DNA of 47,817 nucleotides from Octopus sinensis. Taxonomy: Eukaryota. How positions within the stretch are numbered: the first letter of the stretch is position 1; each line of letters starts with the position of its first letter. Below are positions 13,536-18,327 of this stretch, one piece after another. Under the pieces are notes generated by a model. That model was not told where the DNA came from. It did no database searches and was given only the letters and a program-made list of their open reading frames with translations. The stretch spans positions 1-47,817 of the forward strand of contig NW_021834498.1 in assembly GCF_006345805.1 (NCBI RefSeq), read 5' to 3'. The position numbers were made by a program, and so were the translations under genes.

Positions 13536-13690
13536 GAGATGGCACCAAGTCTCAGAGTCGCAAGCGCTGTCGGACATCTTTCACACCGGAGCAAGTGGCA
13601 ACGTTAGAGAAGGAATTTCAGTTCACCAAATATATTTCTGTTTCAAGGAGGATTCATCTCTCACTGACCTTAGGACTCACAGACACGCAG
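13536..13690 (+). CDS. Homeobox gene internal exon (homeodomain residues 1-44), NK-like/ANTP class
   Basis: After the acceptor ...ctaattttAG it reads (G)DGTKSQS-RKRCRTSFTPEQVATLEKEFQFTKYISVSRRIHLSLTLGLTDTQ, with R5, F8, Q12, L16, F20, Y25, R31, L34, L38 and L40 conserved. It ends CAG|GCAAGT (GC donor, phase 0). An in-frame TAA at 13484 with no ATG in between shows that an upstream exon (phase 1) is needed. Confidence 0.93.
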
Positions 13691-14314
13691 GCAAGTATAC
13701 CGGTATGAACGTATGTGTGTGTGCGCGCGTGTGTGTGTGTGTATTATGATATTTGAGGGTGATTATATTTTTTGCCACTTACCCAACATTTTATACTGGG
13801 TCTTCATTTCAGCTTCATCATTATTCTTATTTTAATATCCTTTGACATCTCAACCGGCACCAAAATGGTAAGAGGCAATATGAATCGTATGCTGTTTCGG
13901 CGAAAAATCATAAACGATAAACATATTTTTAATTCACCTGAAGAAAACGTCTTTTATTACATGATGTAACTGATTTATTAATTAATAAAAAAAGAAACGC
14001 ATCTGAAACAGCTGTAGTAAACCTCAGCCCATTTGCGTTAGAATTTATACTACCGCCCACTGGGAACCTTGTACCTACGGTGGACGGTGGGCTGCGTGAC
14101 GGAACATTCTCTTTTGTGATTTTACGTACACGTTGGGGTGTTTTGGTCTCTATAATATGAATATATGCGTAACGGGAAGGAAATTGCTTTAGTAAGGATA
14201 TGGATGTCCGTAAGCATCATTAATACACAGGTATGCTACCTCCGACTCTACCATGATGCCTTTGTTATTAGAATATGTTGATTTCATTGGATCCTGAAAA
14301 TATACATTTACATA

Positions 14315-14340
<26 letters not shown>

Positions 14341-14345
<5 letters not shown>

Positions 14346-15130
14346 ACGGCAGTTTGTCTGTCTGTGTGTCTGTCAGGTTGTACCCTCACCCTGACCACGG
14401 CTTTCAACCGATTCTGATGAAACTTGACACACACATAGCCCAATGTCATAATTCAAAACTAACGCAGCGAAAATTTTGAAAAGTTCCCCCAGTTCTGAAA
14501 AGAAATCGATAAATTCGACATGGGTCGAGAATCTAAGCTTTTTATATGCAACACATTTTCTACAGACTGTCTAGGGGGCGCAACTCGACCTTTTTAACTC
14601 TCGGAACACGTGGGGTAAGTATCCCAAAATGTATAAAAATGTATAAAAACGGCAAAAAAGCGGGCAGCAATATGAGTGACAACAACGAAAAAGTCAAAAG
14701 TGACCAAACTGAGCAAACGAATGGAAAAGATTTTTTTGGTGCACACGACAAAAGCGGTTTATAATAAACCAAGAGTTTGCAAGTAGCGTCCGAGGACCCT
14801 TAGGGTACGTCAAAGATTTAAGGTAAAACGTTTGGGGTGGTAGTTATAAAGAAAGTGTAAACAAAAAAGGTATTCGAATAACTTGCGGCTGCAGCAGCTA
14901 TTAGCAGAAGTGGCGGTGTTGGGGGTAAAGTCTCGAATGTAATTTCTTCCTGGTAGGAATTGGTTGGGTTGAACTATCGATAGCTGTTTGATAGTTATTT
15001 GGGAGTGAAGAGAAGACATTGCAACCTACACATGCGCCTTCGTTCCCTAGAGGGAAAGGACTAGATTGGGATTAGTCGTTGCCTACTAGGGGCTCTTACA
15101 TACACGGGCAACGCCGGGCTATGCTGCTAG
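14341..15130 (+). mobile_element. Non-autonomous Helitron in the homeobox intron
   Basis: 3' end CACGGGCAACGCCGGGC + 7 nt + CTAG|T. The 5' end is lost in a TA run followed by (GTCT)n. Same terminal design as 44561-44917. Confidence 0.75.
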
Positions 15131-16810
15131 TTTATATATACATGGTGTTTACATGTTTCTGGCTACGCATTTAGATGTTCCTTTAAAATGCAACTCCCAC
15201 TAACCCTCAATCATTTCTTTCTTTCAGTCTTGTCTTTCTTTCTTCTTTTCCTTTCTTTCTAACTTTCTTCCTCAGCATCTGTAAATTGATTATTATTCAA
15301 TGCACCCCCCTCTCTCTCTCTCTCCATTTAGTATTATCTCCCACTACTCCCCTCTCCCTCACACCTCCATATAATTATTCCTTTTCCGAAACTCCTTCAC
15401 ATTTTTTCACTTTCTTTATTCCATTCACTTTTTCTTTCACTCATCTCACACACACACATCCAAACACTTATCATCTCGTTTCTCTTTATCGTTCACTCAC
15501 ACTCTTAACACTAAAGGACTCTCTTTCTCCCTGTATATCATCTTTATATATTTCATTTCTCCTCTCCCTACATCTCCCCGACTCTCACTGTCTCTCTCTC
15601 TCCCGACTCTCCCTCTCTCTCCACTCACACACATACGCACCCAAACTCTCACACTCACATCAAACTATTTTCTCTGTAGCTTTCTATCTTTTTTCCTGTC
15701 ACCCACTCTGTCTCTGCCTTTCTCACTTTCCCCCTTTATTTATATATACATACAAACAAACATACACACACACACGCACACACACACACACATTTATATA
15801 TACATACATATATGTCAATGTCCATATATATATTTATTAATGTGTATATATACACACCTATATATCCTTACACGCACATGTATATATATATATGTACACA
15901 CACACACACACACACTCACACATATATATATATATACATAAATACACCTACTATGCTATAAAATATGTATGCAGATATATATGTATGTTTCAATCGCAGT
16001 CGCTGTCTCCCTGTCTCTCTCTGTATATCTGTCTATCTCTCTCTCTCTCTCTCTCTCTCTCCTTGTCTCTCCCTATGTCCAAGTTTTCCATTCAAAACAT
16101 CATTCATTCCTATTTTACAACCTCTCTGACACTCTGCAGAACAGCCACGTGCCAGCAGTCACCTCTGAACTACCCCTGCCACCCCATACAACCAGACAGT
16201 ACTGTCTCAAAACAGCACGAATAAAACTCCGATATTCGTGTGAAGAACTAACTTTTGGCCCGATTTATGATGCCAACCAACTCATAAAATGGAATGAAAT
16301 CAGCCATGAGTTAGAACCTCCATATGAAATATTTTATTGATTCAAGTAACAGAGTAGACATCTTGCTTTTCATTTGTGCCGCGGTGACATGTTACATTGT
16401 TAACCTAAACGTCCATACATGCACACGTATACATATGTGTGTGTGCTTGTGTATGTGTGTGTATGTGTGTGCTGACTTCATAAGAGTCTTATAATCGTTC
16501 GGAAGAACGTGAAATAATTCTTTTTGATATTTTTAAGGTCCACATGAAAGTATAATAATAGCATGAGAAAATTGGTTGAGAAACCCTTTGGATAGGAAAA
16601 GGCCAAGGATTTTCAGATGTGTTTTATGTCCGACGAGAAGCCTTCGACATTTTTCCCCAAAGTTCTTTTTTGCAATTCAACACTTTCACGGTATTACTTA
16701 TGATTGTACGTGAGACTCAAGATTCTCTGAAAGAATTATACATATATATATATATGTGTGTGTGTATGTGAATATATATGTGTGTGCGCTCGTAAAATGA
16801 GTTAAGACAT

Positions 16811-17443
16811 AATAAACAGGAAACAGACACACGTGGTCGCCAACTCTTCGTCAGTTATCTGCTAGCGAGTCAATCGCAATTTAGCGCCTTACCGATATTA
16901 TTATATCCCCTAGTGGTGGCGCCGAAGACAAATGCTTCCGGGAATTGGCGAGCCAAATAAACATGAAACAAAACAGAATATGTACGGACAAGAATGCGTT
17001 ACAGACAGTTAACATACGAATGTGGAATAGATGGCATCCAATGTGAGACAATTAGTGTATGCACGTGGGACAGCGAAGAAAACAAACATGACTGTGGGAA
17101 AACAAGCGAATTGATATAGATATCAGTCAGGAGACAAAAATAGCCGATGCTGGAAGACTATCCTGAAGGATTTAACAGAGGGACAACAAAAGGCGAATAG
17201 AGCGGGTGACGAGGAAATGAGACAGTTTGGTAAACCAACCGGTCCAGAAAAGAAAGAGATAAGACAATGATCAGAGGTCACATGTCGGTAGTAGGAAGGA
17301 TGAAAATGGCGGAGAGCAAAGAGAAACACAGAGGGGTGGGCAAAAGGATGTCAGAGATAGAAGGAAGGGGACAAATAGAGAGAGAGAGAGAGAGTTAGAG
17401 AAGGCCAAAGAACGTGAAAGATAGCAACATAGAAGGAAGGGGA

Positions 17444-17491
<48 letters not shown>

Positions 17492-17820
17492 AGTGTGCGT
17501 GAAAGTTAGAGAGGAAGAGAAAGGTGGGAAAGAGAAGTACAAAAATATGGGGTATTAAGCTGTAAATAAAAAATTGTTCTAATGTAAGTAATATATAACA
17601 TATAATAAACGAGAAACAAAGATGGTCGCCAACTTCTTATCAGTTATCGGCCAGCGAGTCAATCGCAATTTCGCGCCTAACGGATTATATCACACCCCGC
17701 CGGGAACTGACGAGCTAAAAAACCAAGAAACGACAGAAAATTGTACAAACTGACAAGAATGCGTTATAGACAGTTAACATACAAATGTGGAATAAATGTA
17801 ATCCAAAACGAGACAATTGG
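16811..17820 (-). repeat. Direct repeats (16811-17055 and 17604-17820) flanking a purine-rich spacer
   Basis: Shared TGGTCGCCAAC...CAGTTATC.GC.AGCGAGTCAATCGCAATTT...ACAAGAATGCGTTA.AGACAGTTAACATAC.AATGTGGAATA. The partial-tandem arrangement is reminiscent of retroelement terminal repeats. Confidence 0.8.
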
Positions 17821-17845
17821 AGGATTGTCCCTCGTACATCCACTT

Positions 17846-17945
17846 GCGCACGTATGATTGTGATGCATGTACCTTGTGTAACTTTATCAGATGAGTAGTC
17901 ACGATGAGCATACTGAGCTTCGTATGTATTTATCCCAGCGTCAAT
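17846..17945 (+). repeat. Fragment of the same repeat as 845-1210
   Basis: GCACGTATG.TTGTGATGCATG...TTATCAGA.GAGTAG.CACGATG shared, followed by (AAT/GAT)n. Confidence 0.65.
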
Positions 17946-18054
17946 AATAATAAAAACAATAATTATGATGATGATGATGATAATAACATTAATAATAATA
18001 ATAACAACAACAATAATAATAATGATCGTTTTTGTTGTTTTCTTTAACTCCTAG

Positions 18055-18327
18055 GTAAAAATTTGGTTTCAAAATCGTCGCACGAAATGGAAGCGAACCA
18101 ACAACCATCTACCAGCATGTTTAAACTCACCCTACCACAGAACTCTCAGAGGACACAGCAACATTAAATATTCTTCAGAACACTTCCAGTATTCTTCTAA
18201 CTACTTACATCCGGTGTATTCCAGTTGGCATCCATCACCGGAAGTGTTCTATCCGCCATATTCTTACATCGTACAAGGAAACTGTGCATTCACATCCGCT
18301 AGATGTTGTGACTATATCTATATATAA
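18055..18327 (+). CDS. Homeobox gene terminal exon (helix 3 + C-terminal tail)
   Basis: Pyrimidine tract and ctcctAG acceptor, then VKIWFQNRRTKWKRTNNHLPACLNSPYHRTLRGHSNIKYSSEHFQYSSNYLHPVYSSWHPSPEVFYPPYSYIVQGNCAFTSARCCDYIYI-stop (TAA 18325-18327). Phase 0, joins in frame with the 13536-13690 exon. Confidence 0.95.
   Translation, partial: VKIWFQNRRTKWKRTNNHLPACLNSPYHRTLRGHSNIKYSSEHFQYSSNYLHPVYSSWHPSPEVFYPPYSYIVQGNCAFTSARCCDYIYI

What the first reader, a model, noticed from the sequence alone, without database searches (positions are those of the whole stretch)
13536..18327. Hidden, divergent NK-like homeobox gene missed by the ORF track
Seen: the spliced homeodomain RKRCRTSFTPEQVATLEKEFQFTKYISVSRRIHLSLTLGLTDTQVKIWFQNRRTKWKRTN (Q50, T54). 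Helix 3 and the 44/45 intron recall NK1/slouch (VKIWFQNRRTKWK), while KYISVSRR.HLS recalls Abox-type domains, both from memory. Residues such as C4, V13, F22 and I26 fit neither cleanly. Inference: a divergent orthologue or a lineage-specific NKL gene, with under 1% of the window being its coding sequence.
Basis: partly seen in the sequence, partly recalled or inferred. Interest (0 to 1): 0.75.

Follow-up and report, generated by a model that had tools for sequence, protein, structure and literature searches.

The report
Divergent octopus Nedx/lms homeobox gene
This is a real, spliced homeobox gene in an octopus genome, likely the long-diverged counterpart of the fly muscle-identity gene lms (Nedx family), which the mollusc gene lists I checked do not include.

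Summary
Exons 13536-13690 and 18055-18327 encode a complete Q50 ANTP homeodomain, split at 44/45 by a 4364-nt intron with a GC donor. The exact junction is in contigs of 3 of 4 probable RNA runs.

It is probably neither NK1 nor Abox: the genome holds two ordinary NK1 loci and a separate Abox. It is the reciprocal best match of a chiton Nedx/lms-type protein (43 of 60 residues). It groups with Nedx(+Abox) in 925 of 1000 bootstrap trees and with NK1 in none.

Support is moderate. An NK1 placement is not rejected (AU p 0.235), the branch is about 11 times the Nedx median, and the conserved Nedx tail is missing. The first exon(s), and so the eh1 motif, were not found. Synteny cannot be tested on this 48-kb contig.

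Verdict: likely a divergent member of a known family, not a new kind. It is of moderate interest because oyster and limpet tables score Nedx as absent and a published mollusc list with an Octopus sheet lacks it.

The parts
13512..13535 (+). Splice acceptor region (AG at 13534-13535) of the intron that leads to upstream exon(s), which were not found
   Evidence: Sequence; an X3 contig leaves the genome here with 11 foreign letters
13536..13690 (+). Coding exon A: linker plus homeodomain residues 1-44 (13559-13690)
   Evidence: Pfam PF00046 profile 1-43, E 5.6e-12; covered whole by an X3 contig and in part by X2 and X4 contigs
13691..18054 (+). 4364-nt GC-AG intron at homeodomain position 44/45
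   Evidence: Donor CAG|GCAAGT and acceptor TAG|G; skipped in 3 of 4 runs
14346..15131 (.). High-copy repeat inserted in a TA run inside the intron, ending in CTAG; Helitron/Helentron-like (family name recalled, not tested). A passenger, not part of the gene's function
   Evidence: 1588 first-look candidates in G000, 40 scored, full-length copies 95-98% identical; ends read
18055..18327 (+). Coding exon B: homeodomain residues 45-60 (18055-18102), a Tyr/Ser/Pro/His-rich tail, TAA stop
   Evidence: Pfam profile 44-57; contigs cover 18053-18282; one match in G000, itself

Best explanation
The window holds the last two coding exons of a spliced, single-copy ANTP-class homeobox gene that is likely the octopus orthologue of Nedx / lateral muscles scarcer (lms), diverged far faster than is usual for that family. 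Shown: the exons, the GC-AG intron and the joined form in probable RNA contigs. Inferred from established homeodomain biology: the protein is a nuclear transcription factor whose intact recognition residues (R3, R5, I47, Q50, N51, R53, T54, K55, all matching the Nedx majority) would bind TAAT-core DNA sites. Inferred from family membership and untested: a missing N-terminal exon would carry an eh1 motif and recruit Groucho, making it a repressor that works in a small set of embryonic cells. The most likely role is muscle identity in arm or mantle mesoderm, as for fly lms and onychophoran Nedx.
For: (1) Rescoring the 150 listed library hits (of 1116 at E<=0.001) over 60 columns puts 15 Nedx-type domains first, led by chiton P0035 (43 of 60). 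The family is named by amphioxus P0161 ('linked to engrailed and distalless homeobox b') and beetle P0238 ('lateral muscles scarcer'), and by the Dm_lms and Bf_Nedx sequences in the PMC6125248 supplement. (2) Reciprocal: the chiton exon-A stretch finds the window first of 38 matches in G000 (64%, E 1.7e-10). An insect Nedx query finds no closer Nedx-type exon among 49 matches. (3) Tree of 69 domains: window+Nedx+Abox 93/82, in 925 of 1000 bootstrap trees, against 0 for window+NK1 and 0 for window+Abox. Without Abox and four long rows, window+Nedx is in 840 of 1000. Without the chiton, its nearest set is Nedx/Abox rows only in 904 of 1000. A window+Nedx clade fits as well as the free tree (AU p 0.509). 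(4) Of 25 columns where the Nedx and NK1 majorities differ, the window sides with Nedx in 12, NK1 in 4, both in 4, neither in 5; of 18 Nedx/Abox columns, Nedx 13, Abox 0, neither 5. (5) E19/R30 is the polarity given for Nedx/Lms, En and Abox, not NK1 (bioRxiv 2023.03.14.532566, passages). (6) The NK1 and Abox slots are already filled in G000. (7) All 41 of the 53 Nedx-type library domains that break off do so at residue 44-46, as read-through into a 44/45 intron would give. (8) Three of 4 listed coding differences in other runs are silent.
Against: Only 60 columns are usable. An NK1 clade is not rejected (lnL 7.35 lower, AU p 0.235). Mean identity is 37.2 of 60 to 132 Nedx-type domains and 35.6 to 10 NK1 domains, a small gap. 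The Nedx profile scores the window 104.6 bits, against 127.1 for the chiton, 97.7 for G000's Abox and 92.4 for G000's NK1; the NK1 profile gives it 93.8. The Nedx set is larger and more varied than the NK1 set, which favours Nedx in the column count. The grouping is not starred, and Nedx itself is not one clade in the free tree because Abox nests in it. Without the chiton, strict window+Nedx falls to 373 of 1000 and En is the nearest set in 96. The end branch is 0.63 against a Nedx median of 0.055. Eleven of 60 residues occur in none of 132 Nedx-type domains. The conserved tail that follows the domain in bilaterian Nedx rows is absent. The 44/45 position is shared by many NK-type genes (read-through seen for G000 NK7, Mnx and Dlx loci), so it is not diagnostic. 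eh1, start codon, synteny and tissue are untested. One listed difference changes T6 to A, in a single contig of depth 3.3.
Confidence: 0.75

Rival explanations
1. A cephalopod-specific orphan ANTP gene that arose by duplication of another E19/R30 gene (En, Mnx, Abox or Nedx itself) and resembles Nedx partly by chance, with true Nedx lost or missing from the assembly.
For: Long branch (0.55-1.02); 11 residues unseen in 132 Nedx-type domains; no Nedx tail; En nearest in 96 of 1000 trees without the chiton; G000 has 13516 contigs and may lack genes.
Against: Reciprocal best match with the chiton Nedx-type protein; nearest set is Nedx/Abox rows in 952 of 1000 trees; no other Nedx candidate in G000.
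Confidence: 0.13
2. A diverged third NK1/slouch paralogue.
For: 36 of 60 identical to G000's NK1; T23, L36, V45 and N60 fit NK1 only; AU does not reject it (p 0.235).
Against: 0 of 1000 bootstrap trees in three data sets. It needs a reversal of the 19/30 charge pair (passages). Both G000 NK1 homeoboxes have no intron. V45 is also in the chiton protein.
Confidence: 0.07
3. An Abox-type gene.
For: Shares E19, a basic residue at 30, the S27-V28-S29 run and T54 with Abox; Abox falls in the same group in the free tree.
Against: 29-30 of 60 identity; 0 of 18 diagnostic columns; AU p 0.02; a separate Abox gene with introns at 21/22 and in codon 53 exists on C6.
Confidence: 0.02
4. A decaying Nedx copy under relaxed selection, still transcribed at a low level but no longer needed (this can hold together with Nedx ancestry).
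For: Fast divergence and loss of the tail; low contig depth, 2.3-3.3; Nedx is scored absent in oyster and limpet, so the family is dispensable in some molluscs.
Against: No stop or frameshift in 142 codons; helix 3 and all base-contacting residues intact; splicing kept under two organism labels, with 3 of 3 listed differences in X4 silent (two of them lie in one codon, so the sample is tiny).
Confidence: 0.08

Closest known systems
Nedx / lateral muscles scarcer (lms, CG13424) family; nearest protein is chiton P0035 (XP_064598547.1, auto-named 'Hox-B7a-like')
   Same: 43 of 60 identity to the chiton domain; K2, E19, K24, V28, R30, S35, I47, Q50, T54, R58; 44/45 intron position; one copy; reciprocal best match.
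   Different: 38 of 60 to amphioxus Nedxb, where the other non-amphioxus Nedx rows reach 43-52. C4, S7, A14, K18, F22, T23, I26, L36, D42, T59 and N60 are unseen in 132 family domains. The conserved tail is absent. The donor is GC, where 40 of 41 read-through family fragments show Gln then Val, as a GT donor gives. eh1 was not found because the first exon is missing.
NK1 / slouch
   Same: Residues 43-57 identical; V28, T54; 36 of 60 to G000's NK1.
   Different: K19/E30 in NK1 against E19/R30 here; NK1's R2, Y10, R24, C29, N33, A35 and K58 are absent; G000 has two ordinary NK1 loci with unbroken homeoboxes.
Abox (CG34031, ceh-19)
   Same: E19, basic 30, S27-V28-S29, T54.
   Different: N-terminal arm, T47, intron positions and tail differ; 29-30 of 60; separate gene on G000:C6.
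Oyster Cgi_NKL (ANTP NKL Clade I) and Spiro-Nk / Lilo-Nk orphans
   Same: Spiralian ANTP genes that are hard to place.
   Different: By eye, Cgi_NKL as printed has T47 and M54 and a different helix 2. It was not put in the tree, and the Spiro-Nk and Lilo-Nk sequences were not seen.

Membership tests
ANTP-class homeodomain | 60-residue homeodomain with W48, F49, Q50, N51, R53 and no proline at 26 | tested here: met
   Pfam; residues; position-26 rule passages
Nedx/lms | Homeodomain groups with Nedx in a phylogeny | tested here: inconclusive
   Favoured: 925 of 1000 with Nedx+Abox, 840 of 1000 without Abox, AU p 0.509; but not starred, and NK1 not rejected
Nedx/lms | Reciprocal best match, with no better candidate in the genome | tested here: met
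   the assembly may be incomplete
Nedx/lms | E19 with basic 30, V28, T54, R58 | tested here: met
   polarity rule passages
Nedx/lms | Homeobox intron at 44/45 (shared, not diagnostic) | tested here: met
   family read-through pattern in 41 of 41 broken library domains
Nedx/lms | Conserved tail after the homeodomain (seen in most bilaterian rows here; my observation, not a published definition; partly lost in the chiton and different in other rows) | tested here: not met
   A two-residue deletion would realign Thr-Asn-Asn with the nemertean tail (tblastn), a weak reading
Nedx/lms | N-terminal eh1 motif | tested here: inconclusive
   Upstream exon not located; an eh1-like stretch in the intron scores as chance
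Nedx/lms | Linkage to En and Dlx | not testable with these tools
   The window is the whole contig G000:C10969; En- and Dlx-type loci are on other unplaced contigs
Nedx/lms | Expression in muscle or limb mesoderm | not testable with these tools
   Run identities are coded and contigs cannot show tissue or level
NK1/slouch | Basic 19 with acidic 30 | tested here: not met
   The window has E19/R30
NK1/slouch | Groups with NK1 | tested here: inconclusive
   0 of 1000 bootstrap trees, but AU p 0.235
Abox | Abox arm residues (K3, Q6, Y8) and T47 | tested here: not met
   0 of 18 diagnostic columns
Abox | Groups with Abox | tested here: not met
   AU p 0.02; 0 of 1000; only 2 Abox rows were used

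The most novel reading that the evidence does not exclude
Cephalopods kept the ancient muscle-identity gene Nedx while the surveyed snails and bivalves lost it, and then remodelled it (11 family-foreign homeodomain residues, a replaced tail, a GC donor) for a new job in patterning arm or mantle muscle. It was overlooked because the GC-AG intron, the divergence and a small unplaced contig hid it.
Probability: 0.25. Interest if true: 0.65.

Novelty: new member of a known kind. Interest (0 to 1): 0.4.

Why it matters
If it is Nedx, it changes the mollusc gene-loss map. Nedx is scored absent in Lottia and Crassostrea and is not in a mollusc homeodomain list that includes an Octopus sheet, yet a chiton protein and this gene suggest that two mollusc classes kept it. 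Nedx function is known mainly from fly lateral and flight muscles, onychophoran limb mesoderm and brain, and amphioxus pharyngeal epidermis. An octopus copy gives a direct test of whether a muscle role is ancestral to protostomes and was reused in independently evolved arms. It is also a practical case of a regulator hidden by a GC donor. It is not a new kind of system.

Tried and rejected
Upstream exon. The 11 foreign letters have no exact match in the window: 1 match at one mismatch against 2.3 expected, and 3 at two mismatches against 7.0 expected for a 12-letter form. In G000, with a GT donor added, there were 19 matches against 19 for the control; none of the 19 ends an open frame longer than 54 codons. 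Not found.

eh1-like ORF inside the intron (ATG at 16075, seen). It is single-copy, but scores -0.8 bits on a matrix from 69 Nedx-type eh1 motifs whose leave-one-out minimum is 7.6. No contig covered it in the 4 runs, which is not proof. Rejected as chance; a scrambled-exon reading has no support.

Expression. No RNA holder was listed on record. Raw RNA runs X11-X13 (about 6% of each read) laid no read on exon A; this is no evidence either way.

Protein searches. Word-indexed searches with exon A and exon B found nothing (17 and 13 candidates), so no full-length cephalopod protein was obtained; weak evidence. The Atlas gave no result. The metagenome scan found no relative among 592 stretches. 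PDB hits were generic homeodomains. Earlier findings: none.

Not run: structure prediction (the fold is not in doubt) and complex prediction.

Literature. Searches for Nedx with mollus (4 papers), octopus (1) and cephalopod (3), lateral muscles scarcer with mollus (0), and Nedx with four spiralian terms (0) listed no paper on a cephalopod Nedx. Of those listed I read only PMC6050708. One search was too loose to use. The 2015 octopus genome paper was not held and one supplement was unreadable. Either of these, or database gene models, may already list the gene.
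Full report
Source. The window is the whole contig G000:C10969 of a 2.72-Gb genome in 13516 contigs. It is 33.7% GC and rich in microsatellites. Two G000 homeodomains, Cdx-type and Abox, are letter for letter those listed for an Octopus species in the PMC7566022 supplement, so I treat it as an octopus genome.

Observation. Exon A (13536-13690) carries homeodomain residues 1-44 and exon B (18055-18327) carries 45-60, a tail and the stop; joined they read 142 codons. Pfam matches the halves at profile 1-43 and 44-57. The intron is 4364 nt with a GC donor in a strong context. 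Four probable RNA contig sets were laid on 12510-18550. Three show the 4364-nt skip; the fourth has a contig that starts at exon B with 8 unplaced letters. The tool did not say whether the joined form occurs in DNA runs, but G000 has one match to exon B and one exact match to exon A, so no processed copy is seen. One contig leaves the genome at the exon A acceptor, so at least one more exon lies upstream; it was not found. No ORF call covers the homeobox frame (0 of 34).

Nearest relatives. An exhaustive search with exon A gave 1116 proteins, of which 150 were listed. The top ranks are multi-domain proteins whose scores add up. Rescored per domain, the first 15 of the 150 belong to one family, led by a chiton protein. 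The family is Nedx/lms: it includes proteins named 'linked to engrailed and distalless homeobox b' and 'lateral muscles scarcer', and it matches the Dm_lms, Bf_Nedxa/b and Nematostella cg13424 sequences printed in the PMC6125248 supplement. Among the best 120 of 223 relatives of the chiton domain, the chiton is the only named mollusc; unnamed rows cannot be judged.

Slots in the genome. G000 has two NK1 loci with unbroken homeoboxes and a three-exon Abox on C6. An insect Nedx query (49 matches) found no typical Nedx. The chiton exon-A stretch ranked the window first of 38; not all 38 were read. My labels for G000 loci come from comparison with sequences (NK1, Abox, BarH, En, Mnx, Ro, NK7, Gbx) or from recall (the rest).

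Phylogeny. I used 69 domains: 21 Nedx-type rows chosen for spread, 10 NK1, 2 Abox, 35 others and the window; 8 G000 rows were partial. The window falls in a Nedx+Abox group at 93/82, nearest the chiton. Bootstrap counts of 1000 were 925 for that group, 222 for window+chiton, 59 for strict window+Nedx, and 0 for NK1, Abox or Xlox. AU tests: Nedx p 0.509, NK1 p 0.235, Abox p 0.02. Dropping Abox and four long rows gave window+Nedx 840. Dropping the chiton and the long rows left Nedx/Abox rows nearest in 904, En in 96, and strict window+Nedx at 373. Nedx is therefore the best placement but not a proven one. Column counts (12 Nedx, 4 NK1, 4 both, 5 neither, of 25) and profile scores (104.6 against 93.8 and 76.4 bits) agree, with modest margins.

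Divergence. The end branch is 0.63 against a Nedx median of 0.055. Eleven of 60 residues are unseen in 132 Nedx-type domains. By contrast G000's NK1 is 54-59 of 60 identical to 8 other NK1 domains, so the speed-up is specific to this gene. The changes avoid R3, R5 and residues 46-58. The conserved tail is gone. In other runs, 3 of 4 listed coding differences are silent, too few to test selection.

Mechanism. Shown: gene structure and splicing. From established homeodomain biology (recalled): I47, Q50 and N51 with an arm arginine read a TAAT core, so binding is probably Lms-like. Inferred: repression through eh1, which fly Lms is reported to carry (PMC3002276, passages) and which 17 of 21 Nedx rows show by pattern; the exon that would hold it is missing here. 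Inferred: a muscle-identity role, from fly lateral transverse and direct flight muscles and onychophoran limb mesoderm (PMC6466738, passages). Amphioxus Nedx is in pharyngeal epidermis (PMC2982225, passages) and the onychophoran gene is also in brain, so the tissue is the weakest step.

Comparison with what is in print. Nedx is '-' for Lottia in a PMC6050708 supplement table, which also gives '-' for Lottia Abox and may be incomplete. It is 0 for Crassostrea in PMC6125248 Table S1 and absent from the oyster table in PMC5322547 (section 9 read). In the PMC7566022 supplements (5 files searched) 'Nedx' and 'lms' occur 0 times. In its file 4, two window motifs occur 0 times and all 12 hits to the Nedx/En arm motif are En. 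'Nedx' is also absent from the PMC8848322 supplements (7 files) and from the main texts of PMC7566022, PMC6118893, PMC4186843, PMC5322547, PMC4758240 and PMC9635652 (term searches and passages). Full-text searches listed no cephalopod Nedx paper. The library lacks most subscription papers, and I could not see the 2015 octopus genome paper. By the 19/30 rule of bioRxiv 2023.03.14.532566 (passages) Nedx counts as HOX-like, though it is usually catalogued among NKL genes.

Verdict. A real gene; likely a divergent octopus Nedx/lms (0.75); a new member of a known family. Interest 0.4. The bolder case, retention and remodelling for arm or mantle muscle, has probability about 0.25 and would merit 0.65.

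Noticed in passing
window 16075-16224 (+), inside the homeobox intron: A single-copy short ORF starting with an eh1-like stretch after a CT-rich tract; it scores as chance against Nedx eh1 motifs.
   Followed up: yes
window 14346-15131: A young high-copy repeat (95-98% identical copies across G000), heavily present in the probable RNA contigs; ends in CTAG inside a TA run, Helitron/Helentron-like by recall.
   Followed up: partly
window 16803-17053 and 17596-17818: Two copies, 71% alike, of a roughly 250-nt sequence within the intron.
   Followed up: no
window about 23455-25875 (-): A broken retroelement: reverse transcriptase fragment (Pfam RVT_1, E 9.8e-5, below cut-off) followed by a frame with a GIY-YIG-like look (recalled, no Pfam hit); Penelope-like by recall.
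   Followed up: partly
window 28966-29886 (+): A broken mariner transposase: Mos1 HTH and partial DDE domain. Further Tc1/mariner-like pieces near 9300, 5300-5500 and 34500-35200 were judged by eye only (no Pfam hit for 34798-35214).
   Followed up: partly
L002 (G000:C1126) and L003 (G000:C22): Two NK1 genes with nearly identical, intron-free homeoboxes but different flanking residues, so likely true paralogues.
   Followed up: no
G000:C6 32961984-33031161 (L084, L044, L085): The Abox homeobox is split by two introns of about 60 kb and 8 kb.
   Followed up: partly
L033-L036, L039, L050, L052, L053; L032, L038, L042, L055, L056: Several divergent NK2-like and Hox-like homeodomains on unplaced contigs, some in identical copies; they may be lineage-specific expansions, assembly duplicates or DNA of a passenger organism.
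   Followed up: no
P0035 (chiton) and P0042 (nemertean): Spiralian Nedx-type proteins carry wrong automatic names (Hox-B7a-like, barH-like 1), which may help explain why Nedx is seldom reported in spiralians.
   Followed up: partly
window 13119-13254 (+): A stretch with a pyrimidine tract and AG before it and another GC-type donor (GAG|GCAAGT) after it, upstream of exon A. The frame that would join exon A has a stop, and no contig or read covered it.
   Followed up: partly
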